Of a stretch of 32,000 nt of DNA, positions 12,986 to 32,000 are shown in pieces. This stretch comes from Raphidiopsis brookii D9. Its GTDB lineage: Bacteria > Cyanobacteriota > Cyanobacteriia > Cyanobacteriales > Nostocaceae. Both the position numbers and the translations under genes were made by a program. Below the pieces are notes generated by a model, which did no database searches, was not told the DNA's origin, and was given only the letters and a program-made list of their open reading frames with translations. The stretch lies in assembly GCA_000175855.1 (NCBI GenBank), contig ACYB01000016.1, forward strand, positions 30,001 to 62,000. The letters run 5' to 3'. The stretch's first letter is position 1. Each line of letters begins with the position of its first letter.

Positions 12986-13003
12986 AGGAAAGTTGATGAA
13001 AAA

Positions 13004-17929: not shown

Positions 17930-17933
17930 TAAC

Positions 17934-18512
17934 ATGTATAAATTAAATTCTGGTTTTAGATGGACTTCATCAGCGGAAATAGAAATCGAATTAATGGGAC
18001 TGGTTCTGATTCCAGAAGAAATTGATTCTGACATTCAACAATTAGAACAACAACAGCTTAGTCGCAATAATACTACTGACTTTAACAGCAATTACGCTAA
18101 TACTAATGGAGAGATTACTAGTTTTCAAAAACTTAGTAAATCGCAAGATGAACAAGAACTAGAAGATATCCTCAGTAATTTACTCAAGCATGGGGTGTTA
18201 ATTGCCAGTACTGTTGTGTTTATGGGAGGAATATTGTACCTAATCCGTCATGGTTTGGAACCTGCTGATTATCACATATTCAGGGGCACACCACCCCAGT
18301 TTTGTTCACCTAGTGGTGTCATAACTACCATTTTTGCTGGTAGTGGAAGGGGAATAATTCAACTAGGACTTCTAATCTTGATTTCTGTACCTATTTTACG
18401 CGTGGTTATTTCCTTTTTAGTTTTTATGTTCCAAAGAAAATTTACTTATGTGGTGATGACCTTACTGGTACTTGCTACTATTAGTTATAGTTTGGTAAGT
18501 GCTTATTTGTAA
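17934..18512 (+). CDS. DUF1634-like membrane protein (usual TSUP partner) with a Q/N/E-rich N-terminal extension
   Basis: The C-terminal ~115 aa have hydrophobic helices (HGVLIASTVVFMGGILYLIRHG, GLLILISVPILRVVISFLVF). It starts 5 nt after the TSUP stop. The family assignment is from memory of the TSUP-DUF1634 pairing. Confidence 0.55.
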   Translation: MYKLNSGFRWTSSAEIEIELMGLVLIPEEIDSDIQQLEQQQLSRNNTTDFNSNYANTNGEITSFQKLSKSQDEQELEDILSNLLKHGVLIASTVVFMGGILYLIRHGLEPADYHIFRGTPPQFCSPSGVITTIFAGSGRGIIQLGLLILISVPILRVVISFLVFMFQRKFTYVVMTLLVLATISYSLVSAYL

Positions 18513-19009: not shown

Positions 19010-20650
19010 CTACCTGTTGACTTTAAGTGGGGAAAGAGAACGAAAATCACTAGTTGCTATTTCTAAATGTTTAATTAGCGTAGATGGTGGTAATGGTCCT
19101 TGTAGGTGATTCCAGGGAAGAATTTGCTGAGGTGACCAGTGACTATGAACGTAAAAGTCTAAATCGGGAATTTTACCTTTTAATTCCTTAAATGCTCGTT
19201 TATAACTTCCTAAAGAATCACCAAAATTACGAGTTAGTTCTAACAAATAAGAAAGACGACGGTCTCCTCTAGATAACAAAGACTGAATCACGGACCAATT
19301 ATAACTTTCGGGACGAAAATCTATACCTTGGGGTTTTAGTTGTTTTTGTAAAAACTGTAACTTCTTTTCTGCACTCTTGTTAACTCCAAACCATTGAAAC
19401 GGAGTATGGGATTTAGGAACAAAGGTGCTACATCCTAGAGTTAATCGTAATCCGGGAGTAGCCTTTTTTATATCTGTCATCATAGTCACCGTAGCATCTA
19501 AATCTTCAGGTTCCTCACCGGGAACACCTACCATGCTATATAATTTTAACGCTGATAAACCCCCAGCTTTAGCATTAATAGCAGCTTGGATAATTTCTTG
19601 ATTATCTAATTTTTTATTAATAATCTGGCGGAGTTTTTCCGAACCACTTTCTACAGCAATGGTCAAAGAATGGCAATCTCTTTTTGCTAAAGTATGAGCT
19701 AACTTTTGGGTAACCGTATTGGTTCTTACAGAAGCAACACTCAATCGCACATTATCATATTGAGGTTGACTAATATAATCCAAAAGGTTAGAAAATTCTG
19801 GATGTTGAGTTACAGATGCGCCCAGTAAACCCAGACGATTAGTAATTTTTAAACCCTGTTCAATAGCAGGAATTAAAGAACCTTCCAAACTGGCGGTTCT
19901 AAAGGGCAAAGTTAAATAACTGGCTAAACAAAACCGACACATTTCCGGACAACTGCGTACTACCTCCACCATGAAAATATTTTCCCATGCTGCTTTTTCT
20001 GTCACCACTGTCGAAACCGAGAGCTTGTTTCCTCTATAGGTCTGCTTGTGAACAACGGGAGGAATATCAACCTCGAGAGGGTAAATAGCCTTTATTTCCC
20101 CATCTTTGCCCAAATATTCAACATCATATAAACTGGGAATATAGATTCCCGGTACTTGAGCTAAGGTTCTAAGTTGAACACTTTTAGGAGCTTGTCTAAC
20201 CTGCTTATAACAATCAATAAAACTCTCTAATAAAGTCTCTCCATCACCCAATAGCACCACATCAAAAAAATCAGCAAAGGGTTCGGGATTAGCTGTTAAA
20301 ACCGGCCCACCACCAAAAACCAGCGGATGTTCCAAACCCCGATGACTTGCACGCACAGGAATTTGCAAAGACTCTAAAATTTGCAAGATGTTCACATAAT
20401 CCAATTCCCAGGACATGGAAAAACCAATAATTTCTGCTTGTCTAGGAAGAGGTTCTTGCACATCGGTAAATAAGCGACTTACTTGTAGATCATTGCGCAT
20501 CGCTAAAGTTGCCCACACCACCTGATAACCAAGACTAGTGATACCCACAGTGTATTCGTTGGGGAAAGCAAAAATCACAGGGATAGGATTAGTGGTGGGT
20601 TGAGCTGGGGTAAATAATAGACGTTCGGACTCAAATACGGATGATGTCAC
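19010..20650 (-). CDS. B12-binding-domain radical SAM protein
   Basis: The CxxxCxxC cluster motif is CPEMCRFC. The N-terminal region has a B12-binding-like fold pattern. Length is 546 aa. Confidence 0.8.
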   Translation of the reverse strand: MTSSVFESERLLFTPAQPTTNPIPVIFAFPNEYTVGITSLGYQVVWATLAMRNDLQVSRLFTDVQEPLPRQAEIIGFSMSWELDYVNILQILESLQIPVRASHRGLEHPLVFGGGPVLTANPEPFADFFDVVLLGDGETLLESFIDCYKQVRQAPKSVQLRTLAQVPGIYIPSLYDVEYLGKDGEIKAIYPLEVDIPPVVHKQTYRGNKLSVSTVVTEKAAWENIFMVEVVRSCPEMCRFCLASYLTLPFRTASLEGSLIPAIEQGLKITNRLGLLGASVTQHPEFSNLLDYISQPQYDNVRLSVASVRTNTVTQKLAHTLAKRDCHSLTIAVESGSEKLRQIINKKLDNQEIIQAAINAKAGGLSALKLYSMVGVPGEEPEDLDATVTMMTDIKKATPGLRLTLGCSTFVPKSHTPFQWFGVNKSAEKKLQFLQKQLKPQGIDFRPESYNWSVIQSLLSRGDRRLSYLLELTRNFGDSLGSYKRAFKELKGKIPDLDFYVHSHWSPQQILPWNHLQGPLPPSTLIKHLEIATSDFRSLSPLKVNR

Positions 20651-20689
20651 GGATGTGCAATAGTTTGTTCTACTGATATCCCCATTATA

Positions 20690-21610
20690 TCACAATATTT
20701 TACTGGTAAAATCTAAAATGTGGTGTGCCGTAATTTCTGGCTTTTCCACGTGGGGAATGTGACCACAATCAGGAATCCAAATTAATTGACTTTGGGGAAT
20801 TGCTTGTCTAAATTTCTCTCCATCCTTTGTCCCTAGTATTCTATCACTGTCTCCCCATAAAATTAGGGTCGGTTGCCCAATTTTCCCTAACTGCTGTAAT
20901 TTAAAGGCTTGATAACCACCACTTTGGGTAAAGGTAATTAATGATTCCTTCCAATTTGCCATTTCTATGTGCAGGTCACGACAACATAAGGTGTCATCAT
21001 TAATTAAACTGGGATTTTTGTAAGCAGAGCGACAAATGCGATCGCGCACTTGGGAATTACGCAAAAACTCTGCTGCTAATGAGTATAATTGGGGGAACAT
21101 CAATTTACTTAGGGCCGAACCCCCTTTTAAACCAGCACTATCAATCAATATTAACTTTTGTACCAGTTCAGGATAGGTAAGGGCAAAATCGATAGCTGCT
21201 GCACCCCCCATAGAAGCTCCTAGCAAAATCACAGGTTGACCAATAAGGGTTTTCCAAAAATGATACAGATGGGTTTTAATCGCAGCAGGACTATAGCCAA
21301 TATCCCGTTGTCTTTCGGTAAAGCCAAACCCCAGTAAATCCACTGCCCAGGTTGGATGGGTAAGAGCTAACAAGGGCAAAAGTCGGCGAAACTCCAAAAC
21401 CGAACTGTCAAAACCATGAATTAATAATATGGGCGTGTTCCCACTACCCTGGAGGACATAGCTGGTCCTAATTGGTTGGGGACTTAAAGGAGTAATCATC
21501 TCCTCAATTTGGATACTTTGAGCTAAAGCTACAGAAGTTGGTTCCGAGAGTTGTTCAACAGCTGACGGCAAAAAATTGGTTTGAGAACCTGGCGGCTGAT
21601 TTTTGGACAT
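20690..21610 (-). CDS. Alpha/beta-fold hydrolase
   Basis: LIHGFDSS, nucleophile elbow GASMGG and C-terminal DCGHIPHVEKP. The ATG at 21610 follows an AGGAG SD and is preferred. The 40 extra N-terminal codons in the ORF track look non-coding. Confidence 0.7.
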   Translation of the reverse strand: MSKNQPPGSQTNFLPSAVEQLSEPTSVALAQSIQIEEMITPLSPQPIRTSYVLQGSGNTPILLIHGFDSSVLEFRRLLPLLALTHPTWAVDLLGFGFTERQRDIGYSPAAIKTHLYHFWKTLIGQPVILLGASMGGAAAIDFALTYPELVQKLILIDSAGLKGGSALSKLMFPQLYSLAAEFLRNSQVRDRICRSAYKNPSLINDDTLCCRDLHIEMANWKESLITFTQSGGYQAFKLQQLGKIGQPTLILWGDSDRILGTKDGEKFRQAIPQSQLIWIPDCGHIPHVEKPEITAHHILDFTSKIL

Positions 21611-21792
21611 TTTTGGACACTCCTGTTCGGTTTTAGGCAGAAGTGGGTAGACATTTACAAGCAGAACATAGAAGCTGGCTTTAGAGTTTGGGTGATAAGC
21701 CCAAATATCAAAATTTTGCCAGATCATCATTACATGTTACCAAATCCCCTACAATAAATATCACTGATACAGAAATTCAGGAGAGTTAAGCC

Positions 21793-22140
21793 ATGCCAAT
21801 GGCAGTTGGCGTTATCGAAACTTTAGGTTTTCCCGCAGTTTTGGCCGCAGCAGATGCTATGGTTAAGTCTGCTGCTGTCACAATCGTATACTATGGCATT
21901 GCAGAAAGTGGAAGGTTATTGGTTGCTGTTAGAGGACAGGTAGCAGAGGTGAAAACCGCTGTTGCAGCTGGAATAGCTTCCGAAGAAACTGTTTATGGTG
22001 GTCAGGTAATTACTCATTACATAGTTCCCAATCCACCGGAAAATGTGGAAACAATTCTACCTATCCATTTCACTTCTGAGTCTGAACCTTTTCGCTATTT
22101 TTTAACTTGTACCGGTAATTTTATTTATACAGGAGATTAG
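21793..22140 (+). CDS. ccmK3: Carboxysome shell protein CcmK3 (BMC-H)
   Basis: BMC domain [32 protein letters not shown]...[12 protein letters not shown]. The YY and PNPP features match CcmK3 as I remember it. It is paired with ccmK4. Confidence 0.8.
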
Positions 22141-22142
22141 TA

Positions 22143-22493
22143 ATGTCCCTACAGGCCGTTGGATCTTTAGAAACAAAGGGTTTTCCCGCAGTTTTAGCCG
22201 CAGCAGATGCTATGGTTAAAGCTGGAAGGGTAACTTTGGTCGGTTATATCCGAGTTGGTAGCGCCCGCTTTACAATCAATATTCGTGGTGATGTTTCTGA
22301 GGTGAAAACCGCCATGGCCGCTGGTGTGGAAGCAGCACAAAATGTCTATGGTGGTACTCTAGAATCCTGGGTAATTATCCCCCGTCCCCATGAAAACGTA
22401 GAAGCTGTCTTACCTATTGCTTACACGGATCAAGTCCAGCAATATCGAGATTCGGTGGAAAACCCCATCGTCCGCTCCTCCAGTGGTAGATAG
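22143..22493 (+). CDS. ccmK4: Carboxysome shell protein CcmK4 (BMC-H)
   Basis: [57 protein letters not shown]...[11 protein letters not shown] is very close to the remembered CcmK4 pattern. Confidence 0.85.
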
Positions 22494-22589: not shown

Positions 22590-23726
22590 ATGGAACTAAG
22601 TGCAGCAAATATAGCAGAATATTGGCAGAAACTACTCGCTGCTGAGTCTCCTGAAAACAGTGATGACGCTAGAAATAGTATTATGCTTTGGCTTTTGGGG
22701 TCGGACTTAACTAGATTTGCAGGGTTAACACCCAAAGAATTGGAGATTGCTCAAAAGGCTATGGAATATCGCTGGCGAGTTCTACGACAGCGATATCTAG
22801 GTGTGGGAAGAGAACAGGCCTATCGTAATTTGATGGTTCGTTTGGCCAGTGTCACAACGATTAGAAATAAAATTCAAACCTGGATTTCTTTGAGTCGCGA
22901 TCGCCAGCGTGGTGTGATAGATGTACTGCAAGAGATAATTCAGGAAATGCTGCAAAGTGATTCTTATATGCAGCAGCAAATGAGTCTAATTGCTGATGCA
23001 ACTAGGGATAGAAGGTTGCGAGACATGTTACTATTTGCCAGCTTGGAAGAATACTGTTTGCGACCTGTGCGTAATCAGCCTTTATTGACACATCGGTTTG
23101 TCAATTATTTACGCCGAATTCAGCGAGGGGGGTTGACTCAAATTCCTGGTAAGGACGTAATTAGACTGGTTTCTGACGAAATATTAACAGAAGATACGGA
23201 AAGCAGCTTAAATCTTTTAGATGACGAAGCGATCGCCCAATATCAGGAAGCGCAAAAGGTAGAAGAGCAACAATTGTTACGTCAGGAAGTGCGAGAGAAA
23301 TTCGAGGAATACCTATTGGAGAAGCTAGGACAAACAGCGGTGGAGTGGTTGAGCTTATATTTAGAGGGTAAGAGTCAAGAGGAAATTGCTAAAAAGCTGA
23401 ATCAGCCAATTAGGGAGTTATACAGATTAAGGGAGAAAATTAGTTACCATGCTGTTAAGGTTTTTGCCATCAAGGATAAACCGGAGTTGGTAGAGAATTG
23501 GTTATCAACCTCTTTGAAGGAAGATGGGTTAGGTCTAACGCCAAAACAATGGGAGCAGTTAGGGGAGAAGATAAGTCCCCTAGGTAAGGAGATTCTTGAT
23601 AGAAGGAAAGCGGGGGATTCTTTAGCAGGAATAGGGGAGAAATTACAGTTGAAGACCCATAAGGTGATAGGTGAGTGGACAAAGGTTTATTTAGTCGCTC
23701 AGAATTTAAGGGGCCAAAATAATTAA
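22590..23726 (+). CDS. HetZ-related protein (cyanobacterial, C-terminal HTH-like repeats)
   Basis: The C-terminal half (SQEEIAKKLNQPIRELYRLREKISYHAVKVF...ENWLSTSLKEDGLGLTPKQWEQL...AGIGEKLQLKTHKVIGEWTKV) parallels the C-terminal layout of Anabaena HetZ as I recall it. Not verifiable here. Confidence 0.45.
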   Translation: MELSAANIAEYWQKLLAAESPENSDDARNSIMLWLLGSDLTRFAGLTPKELEIAQKAMEYRWRVLRQRYLGVGREQAYRNLMVRLASVTTIRNKIQTWISLSRDRQRGVIDVLQEIIQEMLQSDSYMQQQMSLIADATRDRRLRDMLLFASLEEYCLRPVRNQPLLTHRFVNYLRRIQRGGLTQIPGKDVIRLVSDEILTEDTESSLNLLDDEAIAQYQEAQKVEEQQLLRQEVREKFEEYLLEKLGQTAVEWLSLYLEGKSQEEIAKKLNQPIRELYRLREKISYHAVKVFAIKDKPELVENWLSTSLKEDGLGLTPKQWEQLGEKISPLGKEILDRRKAGDSLAGIGEKLQLKTHKVIGEWTKVYLVAQNLRGQNN

Positions 23727-23775: not shown

Positions 23776-24306
23776 CAGATCGAAATGCGATCGCTTTCTG
23801 GAACTACTGTAGAGTCAACTACTGTAGTGTAAGTTAACATTGCCAATAAAATTTCTAGTCTGTGCCATAATTTGATTACCTCTGAGTAAAGGGGTGTAAG
23901 GTGATCTGGAATTCTTGGCCGAACCGCCCGATCACCTTACTTTTAAGTATAAAACTAATTGAACAGATATGCAAGGGGTTTATAGAAAATAATTAATAAA
24001 ATTTGTAAATCTTTTCGACTTGTCAAGCATAAATGAAAATATAGGAATTTCTGACTCACCCTAGCTTTAAAACCCAATCTAGGTTACATTTATATATTTA
24101 CTGTATTCGTATAGGCGTGTTTTCATACAACTCCAGGAATTTTTAGGAAATCCCCCGGTCTAGAAGTAGCAATTAAGTTGGCTGAAAAGACTAATGATGT
24201 GGTTATTGGTTTATGTATATTGTATGAGTTACCAATTAGGGTTCTAGGAACCTAATTGCTTGAATCAGGGTGTGACCGTTCAATTGAGATTAAGGATAGT
24301 TGATCT

Positions 24307-24474
24307 ATGAATTTAATCGACAATAACGTGCTATTCACCCAGGTTTTTGATAGAGAATCAGTTAGTATTAATGGTGGTAGTCTGTTGGAAATAGTTAATG
24401 TGCCTAATGACGTGCTAAATTTCTTTCAGAATTTACCATCAGAGTTAGAAAATTGGATTCTCGGATATCTTTAA
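24307..24474 (+). CDS. GG-leader peptide A (55 aa), divergent acidic core
   Basis: Hand translation gives MNLIDNNVLFTQVFDRESVSINGG/SLLEIVNVPNDVLNFFQNLPSELENWILGYL. It shares the leader and upstream element with peptides B-E. AAGGA lies 10 nt upstream of the ATG. It is below the ORF-track cut-off. Confidence 0.6.
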   Translation: MNLIDNNVLFTQVFDRESVSINGGSLLEIVNVPNDVLNFFQNLPSELENWILGYL

Positions 24475-24604
24475 GTAAAAGTCATTGAATTTGGGTTTCA
24501 GGTATTGGTGTTTGCGAGAACGCCTACCTGACACTCAATTTTACTTATAAACCCTTTCCTAAGATAGAAATTAGATTGCCAACCTGAAGTTTTTAAAAAT
24601 AAGG

Positions 24605-24638
24605 TCCCCAATTTCTTTATGGAAGTTGGGGATTTATT
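24605..24638 (+). terminator. Hairpin plus T-rich tract, start of the repeat unit preceding peptide B
   Basis: tccccaattt (24605-24614) pairs with aagttgggga (24623-24632), including one G-U, then tttatt. It is homologous to the hairpins at 25517 and 25960. Confidence 0.45.
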
Positions 24639-24823
24639 GTGAGCAGAGATGTATTTTTGAGAAGTTGTTTTTCCTCAAGGTGGTAATTAGGTTGGTTGGA
24701 AATATCAATGATCTGGCTATTGGTTTCTGGATATTGTATTAACAAGCAAGCGGTTGAGGAACTTGCAAAGAAGGAATCAACCTCTAGCTGAAAACAAATC
24801 TAAAGATTATAACTTATACTATC

Positions 24824-25024
24824 ATGCAAGTAACAGGAAATAATGCTCTATTTACGGAAGTTTATGGTGAAGAGTCTGCTATTGTGAGTGGTGGTCAACG
24901 CTCTTATAACTTTATTGGGTTAGCTACGTTTTTTATGCTGGCTCTGATATTGTGGGGACTTGATGAGGGGTTACTATATCCTAATTTTAATAACTATACC
25001 CGGTTTGGAGGTATGTCTACTTAG
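24824..25024 (+). CDS. GG-leader peptide B (66 aa)
   Basis: MQVTGNNALFTEVYGEESAIVSGG/QRSYNFIGLATFFMLALILWGLDEGLLYPNFNNYTRFGGMST (ORF track). Confidence 0.75.
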   Translation: MQVTGNNALFTEVYGEESAIVSGGQRSYNFIGLATFFMLALILWGLDEGLLYPNFNNYTRFGGMST

Positions 25025-25299
25025 GACTCAGAGTCTATTTTTTTAAAAAGAATTTGTTTTTTTGTCTAAAAAAGTTCTCAGATTCTCCAAAAAGTCTGGG
25101 AATTTTTTATGCTTAAAGGTGTGTATTTTTAAGAAATATTTTCTCATAAATATGGCAATTAAAACTACTAAAAGTATCAATGATCTTATTATTGATTCCA
25201 TCTATTGTATTAGTAAGCAAGCAGTTGAGGGACTTACAAATAGGCAATCAACTTCTAGCTGAAAATAAACCTAATCAAAAGATCAAGGAGTACTGTATC

Positions 25300-25458
25300 A
25301 TGCAAGTAATCGAAAACAATGCATTATTCGCTCAAGTTTCTGTCGAAGATGCCGCTGTTTCTTCAGGAGGCTCTTATAACTTCATTGGACTACTTACCTA
25401 CACTACATTAGGTACACTAATCTGGGCACTTGACGAAGCTTTACTTCCTGGTGTGTAA
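25300..25458 (+). CDS. GG-leader peptide C (52 aa)
   Basis: An internal ATG preceded by AAGGAG (9-nt spacing) gives MQVIENNALFAQVSVEDAAVSSGG/SYNFIGLLTYTTLGTLIWALDEALLPGV. The upstream 40 codons of ORF 25180..25458 overlap the conserved non-coding element. Confidence 0.8.
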   Translation: MQVIENNALFAQVSVEDAAVSSGGSYNFIGLLTYTTLGTLIWALDEALLPGV

Positions 25459-25516
25459 AAATTGATTTTACCTTTTGACCCAGAATTTTTCTATCAATAG
25501 TTTATGATTCCTATAT

Positions 25517-25547
25517 ATCCCCAACTTCTCTGTGGAGTTGGGGATTT
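25517..25547 (+). terminator. Hairpin after peptide C
   Basis: atccccaact (25517-25526) pairs perfectly with agttggggat (25536-25545) around a 9-nt loop. The following T tract is short. Confidence 0.45.
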
Positions 25548-25742
25548 GTAGTAGTTATAGATATGTATTTTTGAGAAGTTGTTTTTCCTCAAGGTGGTAA
25601 TTAAGTTGGTTAAAAATATCAATGATCTGGCTATTAGTTTGTGGATATCGTATTAACAAGCAAGCAGTTGACGAACTTACAAAGAAGCAATCAACTTCCA
25701 GCTTAAAACAAATCTAATCACAAGATCAAGGAGTACTGTATC

Positions 25743-25901
25743 ATGCAAGTAATCGAAAACAATGCATTATTCGCTCAAGTTTCTGTCGAAGATGCCGCTG
25801 TTTCTTCAGGAGGCTCTTATAACTTCATTGGACTACTTACCTACACTACATTAGGTACACTAATCTGGGCACTTGACGAAGCTTTACTTCCCGGTGTGTA
25901 A
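25743..25901 (+). CDS. GG-leader peptide D (52 aa), protein identical to C
   Basis: It has the same sequence as 25300..25458 except one synonymous change (cct to ccc at 25892). It is not in the ORF track because it is under 60 aa. Confidence 0.8.
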   Translation: MQVIENNALFAQVSVEDAAVSSGGSYNFIGLLTYTTLGTLIWALDEALLPGV

Positions 25902-25959
25902 AAATTGATTTTACCTTTTGACCCAGAATTTTTCTATCAATAGTTTATGATTCCTATAT

Positions 25960-25990
25960 ATCCCCAACTTCTCTGTGGAGTTGGGGATTT
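25960..25990 (+). terminator. Hairpin after peptide D (copy of 25517)
   Basis: The same atccccaact/agttggggat hairpin, shifted by 443 bp. Confidence 0.45.
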
Positions 25991-26185
25991 GTAGTAGTTA
26001 TAGATATGTATTTTTGAGAAGTTGTTTTTCCTCAAGGTGGTAATTAAGTTGGTTAAAAATATCAATGATCTGGCTATTAGTTTGTGGATATCGTATTAAC
26101 AAGCAAGCAGTTGACGAACTTACAAAGAAGCAATCAACTTCCAGCTTAAAACAAATTTAATCACAAGATCAAGGAGTATTGTATC

Positions 26186-26410
26186 ATGGAAGTAATCGAA
26201 AAAAACGTATTGTTCTCCCAAATTTCTGTTGAAGAGTCTGCCATCTTTAGTGGTGGCTCTAATCCTACTCCTCCTACTCCTCCTACTCCTCCTACTCCTC
26301 CTACTCCTTCTGGTAATCCAGGTTCTTATAACTTCATTGGACTACTTACCTACATTGGGGTAGGTACGCTAATCTGGGCACTTGACGAAGCTTTACTTCC
26401 TGGTGCGTAA
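26186..26410 (+). CDS. GG-leader peptide E (74 aa) with a (PTP)5 spacer
   Basis: MEVIEKNVLFSQISVEESAIFSGG/SNPTPPTPPTPPTPPTPSGNPG-SYNFIGLLTYIGVGTLIWALDEALLPGA (ORF track). An AAGGAG SD is present. Confidence 0.8.
   Translation: MEVIEKNVLFSQISVEESAIFSGGSNPTPPTPPTPPTPPTPSGNPGSYNFIGLLTYIGVGTLIWALDEALLPGA
26264..26308 (+). repeat. (CCTACTCCT)x5 perfect in-frame microsatellite inside peptide E
   Basis: Five perfect 9-nt units read directly from the sequence. They encode PTPPTPPTPPTPPTP. Confidence 0.95.
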
Positions 26411-26494
26411 AATAAGGCCCTTGTCTATATCTCACTCTCCTTAATGCAAAACTCCCACAATTTCTAGGTATTAATAGGAGATATGACAACCCAC

Positions 26495-26538
26495 AAAAGA
26501 GTGAAATGAACCATTCTTGGATTTCACTCTTTTGTTAT
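26495..26538 (+). terminator. Strong intrinsic terminator closing the peptide array
   Basis: aaaagagtgaaat (26495-26507) pairs perfectly with atttcactctttt (26521-26533), 13 bp around a 13-nt loop. The 3' arm ends in TTTT followed by gtt. Confidence 0.65.
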
Positions 26539-26715
26539 ATACTCGGAAATTGGATAATTTTCTCAACCTTCTTACTGCGATAGTACATTAATGCTCTAGG
26601 TTTTTAAAAACCCTATTATGAAAATTACTCACTAAAATCTATACCCCCTTGTTATATCTTACTAATCCAAAACAATAGGATTAGATCCCATAAACATGAT
26701 AAACATTCAAAGATT

Positions 26716-28866
26716 ATGAAATACGCCCATATTTCCCAACACAGCATCGAAGACTGTGGCGCTGCTTGCTTGGCTGCGATCGCCAAATATTATGGCAAAA
26801 ATTTCACCTTGACTCGCACCAGAGAAGCTGTAGGTACAGGTCAATTCGGTACCACTTTATTAGGTCTACAAAGAGGAGCTAAAACCTTAGGTTTTAAAGC
26901 TTCAACAGTTAGAACTTCACCAGAAATTCTCAAAAGATTAAACGAAGCACCCCTACCGGCAATCATTCACTGGCACGGAAATCATTGGGTGGTTTTTTAT
27001 GGTAAAAAGGGGGAAAAGTATATAATCTCTGACCCAGGAGTAGGGGTACGCTACCTCTGTGAAGAAGACTTTATAGAGGGTTGGAATGATTGGTTAATGC
27101 TATTGCTAGAACCTAGTCCAGAAGAGTTTTTAAAAACAGAAGAAGATAAAATAGGTGGCTTTTGGCGTTTCTTTAAACAGGTGTGGACTTTTCGGGGAAT
27201 TCTTGCCCAAGCTCTACCTCTCAATTTATTATTGGGACTGTTATCTTTGGCTTCTCCCTTTTTATTACAAATTCTGACTGATGATGTGCTAGTACGAGGT
27301 GATACCAAATTACTCACCACCATGGTCATTGCCGTGGTCGTGATGAACCTCATTTCTAGCAGTTTATCTTGGGTCCAATCTAATTTAATCGCCCATTTTG
27401 CCCAACGTCTCCAATTGGGACTGGTGATGGAATTTGGCAGACAAATTTTGCATCTACCTCTATCCTATTATGAAGCTCGTCGCAGTGGAGAAATTACTAG
27501 TCGTCTCCAAGATATTAAGCAAATCAATCAGTTGGTTACTCAAGTAGTTGTCAGTTTACCTAGCAAATTTTTTATTGCTCTGATTTCTCTTGGTCTGATG
27601 GCTTTTTATAGCTGGAAGTTAACTTTGGTGGCTATGATAATTGCTGGGATTATGACTATTACTCCTTTAGTGTTTCAACCTAAATTACAGCAAAAAACCC
27701 GTGAACTACTGGTTAAAGATGCGGAAACCCAAGGTGTATTGGTAGAAACTTTCAAGGGTGCTCTAACTCTCAAAACTACTACCGCTGGCAATCAATTCCT
27801 AGAAGAGTTCCAAGTTCGATTTGGCAAGTTGGCTAATTTAACTTTGAACAGTATGCAAATTGGTATTATCAATAATACCTTTTCTGGCTTTATCTCTTCC
27901 ATTGGTAGTATTATCCTCCTTTGGTTTGGTGGTCATTTAGTTATTAATCCTAGTGAAAATCTCAGTATTGGTCAACTCCTGGCTTTTAATTCAATGAATG
28001 CTAATTTCCTGGGTCTCATAACGACCGTTATCAGTTTTGTCCAGGAATTTACCCGCGCTAAAACAGCAGTTCAAAGACTCACAGAAGTGATAGATACCAC
28101 TTCAGAAAATGACTATGATGGCAAAAAGCCTTTTGCTGAAATTCCCAGTGATGCTACAATCACTTGCACTAATATTAATTTCCATTATGCTGGTAGACTT
28201 GACCTATTAGAAGATTTTTCCTTAACTATTCCCGGTGGTCAAGTTGTGGCTTTGATTGGTAAATCAGGATGTGGTAAAAGTACCCTGGCTAAATTAATTG
28301 CTGGGCTATATACCCTCCAATCTGGTAATATTCGCATCGGACTCTATAACCAACAAGATTTGTCTTTAGAATCTTTACGTCAACAGGTGATTCTAGTTCC
28401 TCAAGAACCCCATTTCTGGAGTCGTTCTATTGTGGAAAACTTCCGTTTGGGCGCACCTCATGTTAGTTTTGAGCAAATTGTCCGAGCTTGTGAAATTGCT
28501 GGTGCTGATGAATTTATCAGTAAATTACCCGCAAAATATCAAACTATATTGGGTGAATTTGGTGCCAATATTTCCGGTGGTCAAAGACAACGATTAGCTA
28601 TAGCTAGAGCTATTGTTACAGATCCACCAATTCTAATTTTGGATGAGTCTACGGGGGGACTAGACCCGGTTAGTGAAGCACAGGTTTTAGATCAGTTATT
28701 TAAACACCGTCAAGGAAAAACTACTATTTTAATTACCCATCGTCCCCAGGTAATCAATCGCGCTGATTGGATTATTGTATTGGATGGAGGAAAACTCCAA
28801 TCTCAAGGATCTTTGGAAGAATTGAAATTCAGACGGGGGGAACACCAAGAATTCATTATGGTCTAA
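26716..28866 (+). CDS. Peptidase-containing ABC transporter (PCAT): C39 peptidase, 6-TM domain and ATPase
   Basis: The N-terminus carries HSIEDCGAACLAAIAKYYG (catalytic Cys), GNHWVVFYG (His) and IISDPG (Asp). Hydrophobic TMD follows. Walker A is GKSGCGKST, the signature is ISGGQRQR and Walker B is ILILDEST. Confidence 0.9.
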   Translation: MKYAHISQHSIEDCGAACLAAIAKYYGKNFTLTRTREAVGTGQFGTTLLGLQRGAKTLGFKASTVRTSPEILKRLNEAPLPAIIHWHGNHWVVFYGKKGEKYIISDPGVGVRYLCEEDFIEGWNDWLMLLLEPSPEEFLKTEEDKIGGFWRFFKQVWTFRGILAQALPLNLLLGLLSLASPFLLQILTDDVLVRGDTKLLTTMVIAVVVMNLISSSLSWVQSNLIAHFAQRLQLGLVMEFGRQILHLPLSYYEARRSGEITSRLQDIKQINQLVTQVVVSLPSKFFIALISLGLMAFYSWKLTLVAMIIAGIMTITPLVFQPKLQQKTRELLVKDAETQGVLVETFKGALTLKTTTAGNQFLEEFQVRFGKLANLTLNSMQIGIINNTFSGFISSIGSIILLWFGGHLVINPSENLSIGQLLAFNSMNANFLGLITTVISFVQEFTRAKTAVQRLTEVIDTTSENDYDGKKPFAEIPSDATITCTNINFHYAGRLDLLEDFSLTIPGGQVVALIGKSGCGKSTLAKLIAGLYTLQSGNIRIGLYNQQDLSLESLRQQVILVPQEPHFWSRSIVENFRLGAPHVSFEQIVRACEIAGADEFISKLPAKYQTILGEFGANISGGQRQRLAIARAIVTDPPILILDESTGGLDPVSEAQVLDQLFKHRQGKTTILITHRPQVINRADWIIVLDGGKLQSQGSLEELKFRRGEHQEFIMV

Positions 28867-28912
28867 CTGAACCGTTCCCAACTTCTACCCAACTACTCTT
28901 CATCTACCCAAT

Positions 28913-30311
28913 ATGCTCTATACTCATCGACGTAAATTTATATCTTCTGTAGATAATCCCCAGTTCCTCCCTCCTGTTAGTCGTTGGACTTCTTTAGCAG
29001 GAATATTCCTAGTTGGTACTGTTGCTACTGCTATTGCTCTTGCTTCTTGGGTTAAATATAATGTCACAGTGAAAGCGGATGCTGTGGTTCGTCCTATGGG
29101 AGAAATTCGTGTAGTTCAACCGGAAATAGAGGGAACTATTAAAAGTATTTTGGTCAAACCAAATCAAACAGTGAAAATAGGTGATGTAATTGCCTATTTA
29201 AATACGGATGATTTGCTCATACAAAAAAAGTCAGTTACAAGAAAATATCCAACAGGGTAATTTACAAATATTGCAAATTCATGCCCAAGTCCGTATTTTA
29301 GATCGGCAAATTTTGGCTGAAACTCAAGTTGCTCAAAATGCTATTAATTCCGCAAGGGTGGATTTGTTACGTAACCAAAGGGAATATCAACAACAGCAGG
29401 TTAGCACCCAAGGTGAATTTCTGTCCGCTCAAGCTAACTGGCAAAAGGCTAAAGCTTCTTTGGATAAAGCTCGAGCAGATCTGAATTTTGCCAAAATGGA
29501 TAAGGAACGCTATCAGGAACTATCCCAAATTGGAGCTGTGGGTAGACGGGAATTGGAACAAAAAGCTTTGACTGTTCAGCAAACACAATCAATCCTGGAT
29601 ACTGAGAGGAAATCTCTGGAAATGGCTAAAATTAAGGTTCAATCAGCTCAAGTTGCTATTAATCCAACTCCAGCAGCAGTGATGATAGCACAGGAACGTA
29701 TCGCTCAAGAAACTGCTAGGGGTGTGTCTAATATTGCTAGTCTCAATAAGGAAAAACAAGCTTTAATTGAGCGTCGAGTTCAACTAGAAACCCAAATTAA
29801 ACAATCTATTAAGGAATTAGAGCAGGTAGAAAATCAGATGCGTAAAAGTATGATTTTAGCTACGAGTAATGGTATTATTCTCAAACTCAATTTACGCAAT
29901 CCCGGACAGGTGATCCGTCCCAGCGAATCTGTAGCAGAAATTGTACCTGATAGTTCGGAACTGTTGATTAGAGCTTTAATTCCCACTGAGGAAATACAAA
30001 AGGTCAATATAGGTCAACAAGTTAAATTACGGGTTGGTGCTTGTCCCTATCCTGATTATGGAACACTCCATGGGGTGGTTCAAACTATTTCTCCTGATGT
30101 GATTACCAATCAACCTAATAATCCAGGAACGACTACTAATAGGATGGGTTATTTTGAAGCTATGGTTAAACCAGCAAGTTTGCAATTTGGTCAAGGTCGA
30201 CATCAATGTTATCTCCAATCGGGAATGGAGGTGAAAGCTGATATTATTTCTAAACAGGAAACAGCTCTAGAATTTATGTTCAGAAAAGCAAGGTTAATTA
30301 CTGATTTGTAA
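28913..30311 (+). CDS. HlyD-family periplasmic adaptor (bacteriocin-export accessory type); frameshifted as assembled (ORFs 28913..29260 and 29208..30311)
   Basis: It has an N-terminal TM anchor (LAGIFLVGTVATAIALASW), a lipoyl-like motif (VQPEIEGTIKSILVKPNQTVKIGDVIAYL), a long coiled coil and a C-terminal beta-barrel. The two ORFs join across the A7 run at 29223-29229. Confidence 0.8.
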
Positions 30312-30361
30312 TTTTTATCAGGTGGGGAATAGGCAATAGACTAAAAAAATCGGTGTAGATC

Positions 30362-31114
30362 ATGGGTCTCAAAAAGTTCAAACTAGCATTAAATTGGTTG
30401 TTTTATAAACAATCTATAAAGCTATATGGGGAATCAGAAAAAATTCGAGATGATTTGTTACAGGAGTCTTTTACTATCCGTCGCGGTTTGGAAGCATTGA
30501 AAATTCAACACTGTAATTTATTAAATAACCAAGTAATGGGTTATCCATCGCCAGGTTTTTATCCTGTAAGTTCTCAACTAATCAGTGCTTATTTACCACA
30601 TAATGAATCACCAAATCAATCATTTAATACTTCAATTTCTGAACATATTAAAAGGGTGGAAAACTTTCATCACTCCCTAGTTGATTTAAGCGATCGCCTG
30701 TTTCCAATTTATATTGAAGAGAGTCTACCTTTATCCATTCAGTGTTTGCTAGATTCTTGTTTTCTTGCTCATCCTCACATATCAGTTGATTTTGACATGC
30801 CCAGTTATTGGAGGAAGGAGTCAGCACAATTTAGTCTGCTGACTTTAAGAACTCTTCAGGAATTAATGTCTATAACTGTACCAACTTTTTCCGATCCTCT
30901 ATCAATTTATATAAATTTGAAAGACCGGAAAAATATTCGGGAACTAACTCTGGAAATTATTTACCCCGATATTTCTACTTTGTTATTTTATTCTGGTTTA
31001 CCGGAATTAAAATATCTCAGTAGTAGCTGGGAATTTTTAATTTCTGGTAAATGTTTTTATCATATAGTCAATTACAAAAGTAACTACAAAATAGCCTGGT
31101 TTTTTTGCTGGTGA
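30362..31114 (+). CDS. Soluble histidine-kinase-like protein (HisKA_3/HATPase-like layout, apparently degenerate)
   Basis: 250-aa ORF. EKIRDDLLQESFTIRRGLEAL resembles the R-I-A-R-E-L-H-D..Q.L H-box but has Leu at the His position. SLVDLSDRLFPIYIEESLPLSIQCLL resembles the second DHp helix. The ATP-lid N and G boxes are not recognisable. The alignment was made by eye only. Confidence 0.35.
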   Translation: MGLKKFKLALNWLFYKQSIKLYGESEKIRDDLLQESFTIRRGLEALKIQHCNLLNNQVMGYPSPGFYPVSSQLISAYLPHNESPNQSFNTSISEHIKRVENFHHSLVDLSDRLFPIYIEESLPLSIQCLLDSCFLAHPHISVDFDMPSYWRKESAQFSLLTLRTLQELMSITVPTFSDPLSIYINLKDRKNIRELTLEIIYPDISTLLFYSGLPELKYLSSSWEFLISGKCFYHIVNYKSNYKIAWFFCW

Positions 31115-31294
31115 ATTGAGGTAAATCCCGATAAATCGCCAGGATAGAAATTCAGATCTTAGCTTTCTGACTAGCAGAATAGGTTCTAAATCTTTCTCTA
31201 AAGTTCAGGAATTTTCTCCATGAGGGGTGAAGTACCTCATCCTCAACTAAATAGAATCCATACAATTTATTAGGTAAAGGTTCATCATTTTTTA

Positions 31295-32000
31295 ATGTTG
31301 ATAATGCAACATCAAATACAACATTTATTACCTGATCAATTAACCGTTCAATCCACTAATCAAACTAATAAACTGCTGAAGATATTAGTCATTGATGACC
31401 ATGAATCGGTTCTGAACGGGACGATTTACATTTTGCGTAAAAACTATCCCAGTGCTGAATTTATAACTGCAACAGATGTGCAAACAACTGTGGACCAGGT
31501 AACTAATAGACAACCTGATCTCATAGTTATGGATCTTTCCATACCTGAAAGACAAGGAATGACTGCTCGCACTGATAATGGTATTCAACTACTAAAGACC
31601 TTGATGAAACAACATCCCCATCTGAATATTGTTGTTCAAAGCGCCCACAGCAAAACCCTAGTGCGAATTCGGTTAAATATTGACAGTCATCAAGGAGGTT
31701 TTACCATTGCTAATAAAAGTGTTTCTATTCAGGAGATGTTAACCAGGGTTGATTGGGCATTACAAGGACTAACTCACACTAAGGATATTAAGGGAATTAA
31801 CTCGGGAATGGAGGTAAAACCAGAGTGGTTAAAAGTTTTATATTTGGCCTTTGAGCGGGGATTACAAGATAAAGCTATTGCTCAAGAAATGTGTGTTTCT
31901 GAACGAATGGTACGTCATTATTGGAATAAGTTACAAGATGCTCTCAATATCTATCCAGAGGTCGGTAAAAATATTCGTATTCAAACGGAAAAACAAGCTA
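31295..32000 (+). CDS. NarL/LuxR-type response regulator, 3'-truncated by the window edge
   Basis: Hand translation of frame 2 gives MLIMQHQ...KILVIDDHESVLNGT...PDLIVMDLSIPE...NIVVQSAH...FTIANKS (receiver). It continues with PEWLKVLYLAFERGLQDKAIAQEMCVSERMVRHYWNKLQDAL (LuxR-type HTH). It is absent from the ORF track because no stop is reached. Confidence 0.8.
   Translation, partial: MLIMQHQIQHLLPDQLTVQSTNQTNKLLKILVIDDHESVLNGTIYILRKNYPSAEFITATDVQTTVDQVTNRQPDLIVMDLSIPERQGMTARTDNGIQLLKTLMKQHPHLNIVVQSAHSKTLVRIRLNIDSHQGGFTIANKSVSIQEMLTRVDWALQGLTHTKDIKGINSGMEVKPEWLKVLYLAFERGLQDKAIAQEMCVSERMVRHYWNKLQDALNIYPEVGKNIRIQTEKQA

What the first reader, a model, noticed from the sequence alone, without database searches (positions are those of the whole stretch)
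24150..32000. Candidate peptide export / peptide-signalling locus: five GG-leader peptide genes, PCAT, HlyD adaptor, kinase-like protein, LuxR-type response regulator
All nine genes are on the + strand. The five short ORFs are 55, 66, 52, 52 and 74 aa. Two are below the ORF-track cut-off and one is hidden inside a longer spurious ORF.

They share a ~24-aa N-terminus that ends in Gly-Gly. Hydrophobic residues sit at -4, -12 and -15, with Glu at -8 (shown for peptide B, FTEVYGEESAIVSGG; D in C/D, S in A). This is the spacing of the classical double-glycine leader.

The next gene is a 716-aa ABC exporter that keeps the C39 catalytic Cys/His/Asp, so it is a true peptidase and not a Cys-less C39-like domain. 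A HlyD-type adaptor follows.

I see no modification enzyme between 23.7 and 32 kb, and the cores contain no Cys. The products would therefore be linear, unmodified peptides.

The two regulatory genes right after the exporter recall the logic of Gram-positive Com/Blp pheromone loci. I am not aware of such a circuit having been characterised in cyanobacteria.

GG-peptide/PCAT clusters as a class are already known from cyanobacterial genome mining. Any novelty lies in this peptide family and its linked regulators.
Basis: partly seen in the sequence, partly recalled or inferred. Interest (0 to 1): 0.8.

Follow-up and report, generated by a model that had tools for sequence, protein, structure and literature searches.

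The report
Conserved cyanobacterial secreted-peptide locus with regulators
This is the Cylindrospermopsis/Raphidiopsis copy of a gene cluster found in about 80 species of heterocyst-forming cyanobacteria, where a conserved cleave-and-export pump and a sensor/regulator set sit beside small secreted-peptide genes that differ between genera; the kind of cluster is already known, but its linked regulators and shared promoter appear not to have been described.

Summary
Five + strand ORFs of 55, 66, 52, 52 and 74 aa share a 24-aa leader ending in Gly-Gly. They are followed by a 716-aa PCAT with its catalytic Cys, His and Asp intact, a HlyD adaptor, a 250-aa protein and a response regulator.

Corrections:
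- HlyD is split by a 1-nt insertion near 29221; two other Cylindrospermopsis/Raphidiopsis assemblies, one 99.9% identical, have it intact.
- The "kinase-like" protein has a histidine-kinase fold but lacks the phospho-acceptor His and the ATP-binding motifs, so it is a pseudokinase.
- The real membrane kinase lies just past the window end.

The locus is not a genus oddity. PCAT–HlyD–pseudokinase–NarL-type regulator–kinase occurs in the same order in about 80 Nostocales species (PCAT 73–85% identical). It is always preceded by 1–10 GG-leader genes with hypervariable, Cys-poor, mostly anionic cores.

The window's peptides are a genus-restricted family and do not match the NCBIfam "CTB family bacteriocin" model that describes the peptides in the Anabaena and Fischerella loci tested.

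A roughly 200-nt promoter and 5'UTR upstream of the peptide genes is conserved across genera.

This is a known kind (Wang 2011 group III; closest studied system EbfG/PteB) with a linked regulatory module I found no description of. Peptide sensing is plausible but untested.

The parts
24115..24306 (+). Conserved promoter and 5'UTR upstream of peptide A. Box 2 (AATTAAGTTGGCTGAAAA) lies at 24171-24188, followed by a candidate -35 (AATGAT) and -10 (TATATT/TATTGT).
   Evidence: Alignment of the five upstream regions. The motif is found 4 times against 0.43 expected by chance. The same boxes are conserved across genera.
24307..24474 (+). Peptide A precursor, 55 aa. Leader MNLIDNNVLFTQVFDRESVSINGG. 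The 31-aa core is strongly anionic and amphipathic (net charge about -4.5) and is a different core type from B-E.
   Evidence: Relatives of the A type occur outside the genus: P0145-P0147 and P0153. P0153 lies in a syntenic locus.
24598..24638 (+). Terminator-like hairpin (CCCCAAUUUC...GAAGUUGGGG followed by a U-rich tail) after peptide A.
   Evidence: Fold with z = -2.9.
24640..24823 (+). Conserved promoter and 5'UTR upstream of peptide B (box 2 at 24685-24702).
24824..25024 (+). Peptide B precursor, 66 aa. The 42-aa core is hydrophobic (SYNFIGLATFFMLALILWGLDEGLL...).
25069..25108 (+). Terminator-like hairpin with a U-run after peptide B.
25100..25299 (+). Diverged copy of the conserved upstream region before peptide C. 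The -10 (TATTGT) and the ATCAATGAT segment are kept, and box 2 has degenerated.
25300..25458 (+). Peptide C precursor, 52 aa, with the 28-aa core SYNFIGLLTYTTLGTLIWALDEALLPGV. The true start is inside a longer 92-aa ORF.
   Evidence: An AAGGAG Shine-Dalgarno sequence lies 9 nt upstream of the ATG.
25517..25545 (+). Strong terminator-like hairpin (AUCCCCAACUUC/GGAGUUGGGGAU followed by UUUGU) after peptide C.
   Evidence: Fold with z = -5.9; 0 of 200 shuffles fold as well.
25560..25742 (+). Conserved promoter and 5'UTR upstream of peptide D (box 2 at 25599-25616). It is part of a 443-nt tandem duplication unit.
25743..25901 (+). Peptide D precursor, 52 aa, with a protein sequence identical to C.
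25960..25988 (+). Strong terminator-like hairpin after peptide D.
26003..26185 (+). Conserved promoter and 5'UTR upstream of peptide E (box 2 at 26042-26059).
26186..26410 (+). Peptide E precursor, 74 aa. It has the same core type as C and D, preceded by a (PTP)n linker whose length and sequence differ between strains. No terminator hairpin follows, so it may be co-transcribed with the exporter.
26716..28866 (+). PCAT: a C39 peptidase domain (Q8, C14, H90, D106), a six-helix ABC membrane domain and an ATPase domain; 716 aa.
   Evidence: Pfam. Full-length match to PCAT1 (4ry2) and ComA. Catalytic columns checked. Orthologues are 73-85% identical in about 80 species.
28913..30311 (+). HlyD-family periplasmic adaptor, interrupted by a 1-nt insertion (an extra A in CTCATACAAAAAAAG near 29221). 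It reads as two ORFs, 28913-29260 and 29208-30311. The intact form is 465 aa.
   Evidence: Comparison with the 99.9%-identical contig L001. The gene is also intact in L086 and L087.
30362..31114 (+). Pseudo-histidine kinase, 250 aa. It has a DHp-like helical hairpin and a degenerate CA-like alpha/beta domain, with no phospho-acceptor His, N-box Asn or G-boxes. In this genus there is a 37-aa insertion in the hairpin loop.
   Evidence: No Pfam or NCBIfam hit. A Nostocales-only family of 111 proteins. Alignment. Model and Foldseek search.
31295..32000 (+). NarL/FixJ (LuxR-type HTH) response regulator, cut off by the window end. The full length is 242 aa in L001.
   Evidence: Response_reg. Full sequence. 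Orthologues are 69-83% identical. Fold matches EvgA, DesR, RcsB, LiaR, NarL and FixJ.

Best explanation
**What it is.** This is the Cylindrospermopsis/Raphidiopsis version of a locus conserved throughout the heterocyst-forming cyanobacteria (Nostocales).

**Expression.**
- Five tandem genes encode precursors with a 24-aa double-glycine leader.
- Each gene has its own copy of a conserved promoter and 5'UTR.
- Genes A-D each end in a terminator-like hairpin, so they look like separate short transcription units.

**Export.**
- The C39 domain of the 716-aa PCAT (Cys14, His90, Asp106) removes the leader after Gly-Gly while the transporter exports the core.
- The HlyD adaptor, with an unlinked outer-membrane channel, takes the core across the periplasm and outer membrane.
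- The products are linear, unmodified, Cys-free peptides of 28-50 aa.
- There are three variants of one hydrophobic anionic core (B; C, which is identical to D; and E) and one distinct strongly anionic peptide (A).

**Regulation (inferred).** The three genes that always follow the exporter most likely control transcription of the peptide genes:
- a pseudokinase;
- a NarL/FixJ-type response regulator;
- just beyond the window, a membrane histidine kinase of the HisKA_3-like type.

The regulator would act at the conserved dyad-like box just upstream of the -35.

**Shown and inferred.**
- Shown: gene content, catalytic residues, protein folds, synteny and promoter conservation.
- Inferred: cleavage, export, the regulator-promoter link and the signal that is sensed.
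- The role of the peptides is unknown. Their anionic, Cys-free, rapidly diversifying cores fit secreted surface/matrix or antagonistic peptides about equally well.
For: - **Peptides and leader:**
- **PCAT:** domains and catalytic residues.
- **HlyD:**
- **Synteny:** PCAT-HlyD-pseudokinase-RR-HK in the same order in all of about 80 Nostocales species wherever the flanks allow. GG-leader genes lie directly upstream in 79 loci.
- **Regulators:**
  - The pseudokinase has a histidine-kinase fold.
  - The regulator has a NarL/FixJ fold.
  - The kinase family has an invariant H-box (FETIHNGPLQ), an N-box and a G1 box, plus a CHASE2 sensor domain in most genera.
- **Promoter:** the conserved boxes are found almost only upstream of the peptide genes. 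Box 2 (AATTA[AG]GT) lies at -128 to -154 from a peptide-gene ATG in 44 of 78 loci.
- **Terminators:** hairpins after A-D.
- **Precedent:** in S. elongatus the PCAT PteB secretes the GG-motif proteins EbfG1-4, and secretion needs the catalytic Cys (PMC4997328).
Against: - No direct evidence here for transcription, cleavage or secretion.
- HlyD is frameshifted in this window. If that is real, export across the outer membrane would be impaired in this strain.
- The leader departs from the classical consensus: -7 is not hydrophobic, and -4 is Ser in C and D.
- The conserved boxes were not found upstream of the regulator genes, so there is no sign of the autoregulatory loop typical of pheromone circuits.
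- The link between regulator and promoter rests only on gene adjacency and motif conservation.
- No immunity gene is evident.
Confidence: 0.65

Rival explanations
1. Peptide quorum-sensing or pheromone circuit. One exported peptide, most plausibly the distinct A type, accumulates outside the cell and is sensed by the membrane kinase. The kinase phosphorylates the NarL-type regulator, which induces the peptide genes.
For: - The exporter and the two-component genes are strictly linked in about 80 species.
- Most orthologous kinases carry an extracytoplasmic CHASE2 sensor domain.
- One peptide in the array has a different core type, as inducer peptides do in Blp/Pln loci. That type recurs in other genomes.
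- The peptide genes share a conserved operator-like box.
Against: - The A type is absent from most orthologous loci.
- The cores are hypervariable while the kinase and regulator are 46-62% and 65-81% identical across genera. That argues against a co-evolving ligand-receptor pair.
- The kinase in this genus has lost the CHASE2 domain.
- No operator box was found upstream of the regulator genes.
- The regulator and kinase classes differ from every characterised GG-pheromone system.
Confidence: 0.2
2. EbfG-like secreted structural peptides. The cores are not antibiotics or signals. They would be matrix, surface or aggregation factors, possibly amyloid-forming, for filament adhesion, biofilm or bloom aggregation. 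The two-component system would then set when they are made.
For: - The only functionally studied cyanobacterial GG-peptide/PCAT/HlyD cluster, ebfG1-4/pteB, works this way (PMC4997328).
- A 2025 study singled out the Anabaena PCC 7120 cluster asr5139-alr5148 as EbfG-like and predicted amyloidogenic segments in it (PMC12267927).
- 71% of the 241 cores are net negative and they are rich in S, G, A, T and N with almost no Cys. This is unlike cationic pore-forming bacteriocins.
- The exporter is conserved like a core gene, at 73-85% identity.
Against:
- Orthology of this locus to alr5147/alr5148 was not verified.
- The window's cores (GRAVY up to 0.92) are much more hydrophobic than the S/G/A/T/N-rich cores that dominate the other loci.
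- Cylindrospermopsis is planktonic.
Confidence: 0.3
3. Unmodified class II-like bacteriocins or allelopathic peptides aimed at related cyanobacteria.
For: - Loci with this architecture are catalogued as bacteriocin clusters (Wang 2011 group III, PMC3140520).
- The peptides in the Anabaena and Fischerella loci tested are named 'CTB family bacteriocin' by NCBIfam.
- Cores are hypervariable between genera and even strains, and tandem paralogues differ in number. This is typical of antagonistic arms races.
- The window's cores resemble single amphipathic or transmembrane helices.
- CTB genes are induced under phosphate limitation in Nodularia (PMC9846622).
Against: - No immunity gene was identified. 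Small ORFs between the peptide genes are not conserved between repeat units.
- The cores are anionic and not cationic.
- No antimicrobial activity has been shown for any CTB-family member in the papers I found.
Confidence: 0.3

Closest known systems
Cyanobacterial 'group III' bacteriocin gene clusters (Wang, Fewer & Sivonen 2011, PMC3140520; type example Nostoc sp. PCC 7120 with hlyD = alr5148)
   Same: - Short-type C39 ABC transporter plus HlyD, preceded by several GG-leader precursor genes and with no modification enzyme.
- The survey counted two group III clusters in C. raciborskii CS-505 and two in Raphidiopsis brookii D9.
   Different: - The text of that survey contains neither 'response regulator' nor 'histidine kinase', so the linked pseudokinase, regulator and kinase are not described there.
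- It does not describe the conserved promoter.
- I could not verify which of its listed clusters corresponds to this locus.
EbfG1-4 / PteB of Synechococcus elongatus PCC 7942 (Parnasa et al. 2016, PMC4997328)
   Same: - Tandem small GG-motif genes are followed by a C39 PCAT and a HlyD-family protein.
- Secretion and leader removal depend on the catalytic Cys.
   Different: - ebfG1-4 are co-transcribed. Here each gene has its own promoter-like element, and four of the five have a terminator-like hairpin.
- No adjacent two-component genes are reported for ebfG; 'response regulator' does not occur in that paper.
- Peptide sequences were not compared.
- The biofilm role has not been tested for this locus.
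NCBIfam NF038167 'CTB family bacteriocin' (cyan_ocin_like)
   Same: The six GG-leader genes tested in the orthologous Anabaena and Fischerella loci all hit this model. Four score above the 32-bit cut-off (46.6-78.5 bits) and two below it (28.0 and 23.3 bits). Their leaders (LFTxVSxEQQEIVAGG) resemble the window's.
   Different: - The window's five peptides give no hit at E <= 0.1.
- Related peptides with the MQVIENN leader reach only 14-16 bits, on the leader alone.
- The cores are unrelated.
Three-component regulated class II bacteriocin and competence loci of Gram-positive bacteria (ComCDE/ComAB, BlpCHR/BlpAB, PlnABCD)
   Same: GG-leader peptides, a PCAT exporter that cleaves the leader, and an adjacent kinase and response regulator. 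One peptide differs in type from the others.
   Different: - The regulator is NarL/FixJ-type, not LytTR.
- The kinase is HisKA_3-like with CHASE2 or short transmembrane input, not a polytopic HPK10 kinase.
- There is an extra pseudokinase.
- The cell envelope is Gram-negative, so a HlyD adaptor is used.
- There is no evidence that a peptide is the signal.
HisKA_3 kinase / NarL-type regulator pairs such as DesK-DesR and LiaS-LiaR
   Same: - The regulator model's best full-length fold matches include DesR and LiaR.
- DesK is among the fold matches of the pseudokinase.
- The H-box of the real kinase is of the HisKA_3 kind by my reading.
   Different: - No detectable sequence-family membership: there is no Pfam HisKA_3 hit and HATPase_c scores below its cut-off.
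- The accessory protein is a soluble pseudokinase. By my own knowledge, the accessory protein of the Lia system, LiaF, is a membrane protein.

Membership tests
Peptidase-containing ABC transporter (PCAT, C39 family) | N-terminal C39 domain with the catalytic Cys, His and Asp (plus the oxyanion Gln) | tested here: met
   Peptidase_C39 scores 111 bits and covers 2-131 of 133 model positions. Q8, C14, H90 and D106 align to the PCAT1 catalytic columns. C14 falls on the column that is Ala in the PCAT1 entry 7n87.
Peptidase-containing ABC transporter (PCAT, C39 family) | ABC transmembrane domain plus an ATP-binding cassette in the same polypeptide | tested here: met
   ABC_membrane 128 bits and ABC_tran 111 bits. 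End-to-end matches to PCAT1 (4ry2) and ComA (8hf4).
Double-glycine leader peptides | Short N-terminal leader that ends in GG, GA or GS, encoded next to a PCAT | tested here: met
   All five have a 24-aa leader ending in GG. Strain variants carry GA. The genes lie directly upstream of the PCAT in 79 loci.
Double-glycine leader peptides | Hydrophobic residues at -4, -7, -12 and -15, and an acidic residue at -8 | tested here: inconclusive
   Read from the sequences. Positions -12 (V/I), -15 (F) and -8 (E/D) fit in all five. Position -4 is V, I or F in A, B and E but Ser in C and D. Position -7 is Ser or Ala in all five.
Double-glycine leader peptides | Cleavage after GG by the C39 domain | not testable with these tools
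   Needs an in vitro protease assay or mass spectrometry of the secreted products.
NCBIfam NF038167 CTB family bacteriocin | HMM score at or above the curated cut-off of 32 bits | tested here: not met
   None of the window peptides gives a hit at E <= 0.1. Four of six peptides tested in the orthologous Anabaena and Fischerella loci score 46.6-78.5 bits; the other two score 28.0 and 23.3 bits.
HlyD-family membrane fusion protein | Intact protein of about 465 aa with an N-terminal TM/lipoyl part, a coiled coil and a beta-barrel | tested here: not met
   The domains are present, but the reading frame is broken by a 1-nt insertion near 29221. The gene is intact in L001 and L086. A sequencing error cannot be excluded.
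Sensor histidine kinase (for the 250-aa protein) | DHp plus CA (GHKL) fold | tested here: met
   The AlphaFold model has pLDDT 72 overall and 83-94 over the C-terminal domain. The top 50 Foldseek PDB hits are almost all histidine-kinase or kinase-like DHp/CA modules, at probability 1.00.
Sensor histidine kinase (for the 250-aa protein) | Phospho-acceptor His in DHp helix 1, N-box Asn and G1/G2 glycine boxes | tested here: not met
   The family alignment shows an invariant EKIRDxLLQESFxIRR with no His in helix 1, and no N-box or G-boxes. There is no Pfam hit. hhalign against the real kinase is not significant.
NarL/FixJ (LuxR-type HTH) response regulator | Receiver domain with the acidic pocket and the phospho-acceptor Asp | tested here: met
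   Response_reg 50 bits. The motifs VIDDHE and VMDLS are invariant in the family.
NarL/FixJ (LuxR-type HTH) response regulator | C-terminal four-helix LuxR/GerE-type DNA-binding domain | tested here: met
   There is no Pfam GerE hit. However, the full-length model matches EvgA, DesR, RcsB, LiaR, NarL and FixJ. Sequence alignments to EvgA span residues 28-215.
Com/Blp/Pln-type peptide pheromone three-component system | HPK10-type polytopic kinase and a LytTR-family regulator | tested here: not met
   The regulator is NarL/FixJ-type. The kinase has a HisKA_3-like H-box, with CHASE2 or short transmembrane input.
Com/Blp/Pln-type peptide pheromone three-component system | The exported GG peptide is the kinase's ligand and induces its own locus | not testable with these tools
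   Needs reporter assays with synthetic peptides.
EbfG/PteB biofilm system | Sequence homology of the peptides to EbfG1-4, and a biofilm phenotype | not tested
Only the shared architecture is known.

The most novel reading that the evidence does not exclude
The conserved module is a lineage-wide peptide-responsive circuit of multicellular cyanobacteria. In this reading, secreted GG peptides, or a subset such as the A type, are sensed by the CHASE2/transmembrane kinase, with the pseudokinase as a modulator. The NarL-type regulator then acts at the conserved dyad-like box to switch on strain-specific peptide arrays. As far as I know, this would be the first peptide-based cell-cell signalling or kin-discrimination system described in cyanobacteria.
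Probability: 0.2. Interest if true: 0.85.

Novelty: new variant of a known kind. Interest (0 to 1): 0.5.

Why it matters
**What is already catalogued.** GG-peptide/PCAT clusters in cyanobacteria have been listed since 2011, but only one (EbfG/PteB) has an assigned function. In the searchable literature I found no regulator assigned to any of them.

**What this analysis adds.** One such cluster turns out to be a core feature of the heterocyst-forming lineage. It has:
- a highly conserved exporter;
- an always-linked pseudokinase, NarL-type regulator and kinase;
- a promoter conserved across genera, driving cargo peptides that are replaced or diversified in every genus.

**What becomes testable.**
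- A defined operator.
- A defined regulator.
- Predicted peptide masses.

These allow direct experiments on what these peptides do (antagonism, matrix or signalling) and on how bloom-forming Nostocales such as Cylindrospermopsis control them.

Tried and rejected
1. **A functional link to the HetZ-related protein 2 gene directly upstream** (22590-23726; NCBIfam 587 bits). Rejected. It is adjacent only within Cylindrospermopsis/Raphidiopsis and in 0 of about 80 other Nostocales loci.
2. **Programmed frameshifting in HlyD.** The break needs a +1 shift. A 99.9%-identical contig simply lacks the extra A. I treat it as a mutation or an assembly error.
3. **Sequence relationship between the pseudokinase and the real kinase.** hhalign was not significant. 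Only the fold supports 'kinase-like'.
4. **A known RNA family in the conserved 5'UTR or the intergenic repeats.** Nothing in Rfam reached a gathering score.
5. **A conserved 5'UTR structure.** RNAalifold predicted no consensus structure. A hand-drawn GGAGTTGA/TCAACTCC helix is 77% paired with only weak covariation. Left as a lead.
6. **Autoregulation.** The conserved boxes are not found upstream of the regulator genes.
7. **Orthology to Anabaena PCC 7120 asr5139-alr5148.** I could not find the PCC 7120 protein among the cluster members, so this stays unverified.
8. **Expression data for neighbours of the Nodularia CTB genes.** Nothing was found in the supplements held.
9. **Modification enzymes.** None lies in the locus. 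The B12-radical SAM gene at 19010-20650 is on the opposite strand, separated from the locus by four genes. It is absent from the other loci whose gene calls were read. The MBL-fold gene downstream in many relatives is 82-100% identical across genera and looks like a housekeeping neighbour.
10. **Small ORFs between the peptide genes as immunity genes.** They are not conserved between repeat units.

Full report
**1. The observation**

The + strand between 24.3 and 26.4 kb holds five short ORFs:

| Peptide | Coordinates | Length | Note |
|---|---|---|---|
| A | 24307-24474 | 55 aa | |
| B | 24824-25024 | 66 aa | |
| C | 25300-25458 | 52 aa | inside a 92-aa ORF |
| D | 25743-25901 | 52 aa | identical to C |
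| E | 26186-26410 | 74 aa | |

- All five share a 24-aa N-terminus that ends in Gly-Gly.
- Positions -8 (E/D), -12 (V/I) and -15 (F) fit the classical leader.
- Position -7 is Ser or Ala in all five. Position -4 is Ser in C and D. Peptide A has Glu, not Ser, at -8.
- C, D and E belong to a 443-nt tandem duplication.
- After leader removal the cores would be 31, 42, 28, 28 and 50 aa. They contain no Cys and have a net charge between -4.5 and about 0.

**2. The larger genes**

- *PCAT.* The 716-aa protein (26716-28866) has Peptidase_C39, ABC_membrane and ABC_tran domains. It aligns end to end with PCAT1 and ComA. Q8, C14, H90 and D106 fall on the catalytic columns of PCAT1. C14 aligns with the residue that is Ala in the PCAT1 entry 7n87.
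- *HlyD.* The adaptor is present but split between two frames, 28913-29260 and 29208-30311.
  - A 99.9%-identical public contig (L001) reads GCTCAT-CAAAAAAAG where the window reads GCTCATACAAAAAAAG, and it encodes an intact 465-aa protein. Another strain is also intact.
  - The window therefore carries a 1-nt insertion. It is either real or an assembly error.
- *The 250-aa ORF* (30362-31114) matches no Pfam or NCBIfam model.
  - A model built on 16 family members folds as a helical hairpin plus an alpha/beta domain.
  - Its best PDB matches are nearly all histidine-kinase DHp-CA modules, including HprS, HK853 and DesK, at probability 1.00.
  - The family has no His in helix 1, no N-box Asn and no G-boxes.
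  - I call it a pseudokinase.
- *The last gene* (31295 to the window end) is a response regulator. The full-length model matches EvgA, DesR, RcsB, LiaR, NarL and FixJ, so 'LuxR-type' is right.
- *Beyond the window.* L001 continues into a 326-aa membrane protein with the H-box ETIHNGPLQ, the N-box EESLCNVGKYA and the G1 box DNGLG. This is the real kinase.

**3. Context elsewhere**

- The pseudokinase family has 111 members, and every member that carries an organism name is from Nostocales.
- A scan of one genome per species returned 80 loci, all Nostocales.
- Wherever the flanks allow, the order in each locus is PCAT (73-85% identical to the window's), HlyD, pseudokinase, regulator (65-81%) and kinase (gene calls).
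- The kinase comes in two forms:
  - about 627 aa with a CHASE2 domain, in most genera;
  - about 300 aa without CHASE2, in the clade that includes Anabaena, Dolichospermum and Sphaerospermopsis; the Cylindrospermopsis kinase (326-331 aa) is also of the short type.
- Directly upstream of the PCAT, 79 loci carry 241 GG-leader genes, 1-10 per locus with a median of 3.
  - Cores have a median length of 60 aa.
  - 71% of cores are net negative.
  - Cys makes up 0.1% of core residues.
- The six peptides tested in the Anabaena and Fischerella loci all hit NCBIfam NF038167, 'CTB family bacteriocin', four of them above its cut-off.
- The window's peptides do not match that model. Their full-length relatives are confined to Cylindrospermopsis/Raphidiopsis (exhaustive profile search).
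- The leader (MQVIENNxLFxxVSxEESxxxSGG) recurs on about 38 other small proteins with unrelated cores.
- The A type has relatives in other genomes. One of them lies in a syntenic locus.
- The HetZ-related protein 2 gene just upstream is a neighbour only in this genus. It is adjacent in none of the other species.

**4. A conserved promoter**

- The five upstream regions in the window share a segment of about 150 nt.
- Its AATTAAGTTGG box occurs 4 times in the window, against 0.43 expected by chance.
- K-mers from this segment are enriched upstream of peptide genes across genera.
- AATTA[AG]GT lies at -128 to -154 from the ATG of a peptide gene, usually the first, in 44 of 78 loci.
- The two boxes are found almost only there.
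- The consensus reads:
  - TGTATTTTTCGGAAAT ... TTCTAAATyTGGTAATTAAGTTTGCAGAAA ... ATGACT
  - then 17-18 nt, then TATTsT
  - then a 70-85-nt leader with an AAGGAG ribosome-binding site.
- My interpretation is a -35/-10 promoter with a dyad-like activator site upstream of the -35. This is an inference.
- No Rfam family matches the region.
- A possible 5'UTR hairpin has only weak support.
- Peptides A-D are each followed by a terminator-like hairpin and E is not.

**5. Mechanism**

- *Shown.* The parts list of a GG-leader export system with an active-site-competent protease; a two-component pair plus a pseudokinase strictly linked to it; and a promoter conserved across genera on the cargo genes.
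- *Inferred.* Cleavage after GG coupled to export through PCAT, HlyD and an unlinked outer-membrane channel. Control of the cargo promoter by the NarL-type regulator.
- *Unknown.* The signal that is sensed and the role of the peptides.
- *The three readings, which I rate as comparably likely:*
  - The anionic, Cys-free cores and the core-gene-like conservation of the exporter fit EbfG-like secreted proteins (PMC4997328; PMC12267927).
  - The turnover of cores between genera and strains fits antagonistic peptides (PMC3140520).
  - Peptide sensing remains possible. It is weakened by the contrast between hypervariable cores and conserved sensor proteins, and by the loss of CHASE2 in this genus.

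**6. Comparison and novelty**

- The architecture is that of Wang et al.'s group III clusters. That survey already counted two such clusters in C. raciborskii CS-505.
- I found no description of the regulatory trio or of the conserved promoter:
  - the survey contains neither 'response regulator' nor 'histidine kinase';
  - the searches found nothing relevant.
- The system is not a member of the Com/Blp/Pln family, because the regulator and kinase classes differ, although it could work in a similar way.
- Verdict: a new variant of a known kind. The interest is moderate and comes mainly from the lineage-wide module, not from this genome's peptides.

Noticed in passing
window 22590-23726 (+): The gene directly upstream of the peptide array is a clear 'HetZ-related protein 2' (NCBIfam NF037965, 587 bits against a cut-off of 400). 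It is preceded by two BMC-domain (ccmK-like) genes at 21793-22493. The adjacency is kept in another Cylindrospermopsis-type genome (L088) but in none of about 80 other Nostocales loci.
   Followed up: yes
window about 29221: A 1-nt insertion next to an A7 run splits the HlyD gene. In L088 the PCAT and the kinase of the same locus are also split, which suggests indel errors in some assemblies or repeated decay of this locus in the genus.
   Followed up: partly
window 24115-26185; L002-L085 upstream of the first peptide gene: A promoter/5'UTR region of about 200 nt is conserved at the DNA level across Nostocales genera although the downstream coding sequences are unrelated. It includes a dyad-like box, TTCTAAAT-TGGTAATTAAGTTTGCAGAAA. 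A possible 5'UTR hairpin (GGAGTTGA/TCAACTCC) shows weak covariation.
   Followed up: partly
window 26258-26320 (linker of peptide E); P0001, P0003-P0005, P0007: The linker between the GG site and the conserved core is a short repeat whose sequence and length differ between strains: (PTP)n here, and NKKDD(TD)n or NGNSTPP elsewhere. This looks like repeat slippage.
   Followed up: no
L002, L006, L007, L009, L011 and about 20 further loci, directly upstream of the PCAT: Many orthologous loci end the peptide array with a longer GG-leader protein of about 100-110 aa. It has a conserved middle part (…FSDG…Y.LS..T.G…) and a basic, hydrophobic tail. This type was seen in 26 loci and is absent from the window.
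   Followed up: no
beyond the window end; L001 3476-4456, L004 11733-13616: The sensor kinase of the locus is about 627 aa with a CHASE2 domain in most genera. It is about 300 aa without CHASE2 in the Anabaena/Dolichospermum/Sphaerospermopsis clade and 326-331 aa in Cylindrospermopsis, which points to loss of the sensor domain.
   Followed up: partly
window 30515-30625 (pseudokinase residues about 53-89): The Cylindrospermopsis pseudokinase has a 37-aa insertion in the loop between the two long helices, compared with all other genera. The insertion is modelled at low confidence.
   Followed up: no
L002 12556-13503, L086 8003-8959 and many other loci: A metallo-beta-lactamase-fold gene (Lactamase_B_2, with a weaker tRNase Z-like match) follows the kinase in many genera and is 82-100% identical to the Anabaena copy used as query. 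It is probably a housekeeping neighbour and not a peptide-modifying enzyme.
   Followed up: partly
window 19010-21730 (-): A B12-binding radical SAM gene and an alpha/beta hydrolase gene lie on the opposite strand about 2.6-5.3 kb upstream of peptide A. They are not part of the conserved locus.
   Followed up: partly
window 1-18500: The rest of the window is ordinary chromosomal content: fusA, tuf, rpsJ, gmk, psaL, psaF, tsaD, NAD kinase, an OmpR-type regulator, a peroxiredoxin, a two-ATPase-domain (oligopeptide/dipeptide-type) ABC protein and two TauE-family exporters.
   Followed up: yes
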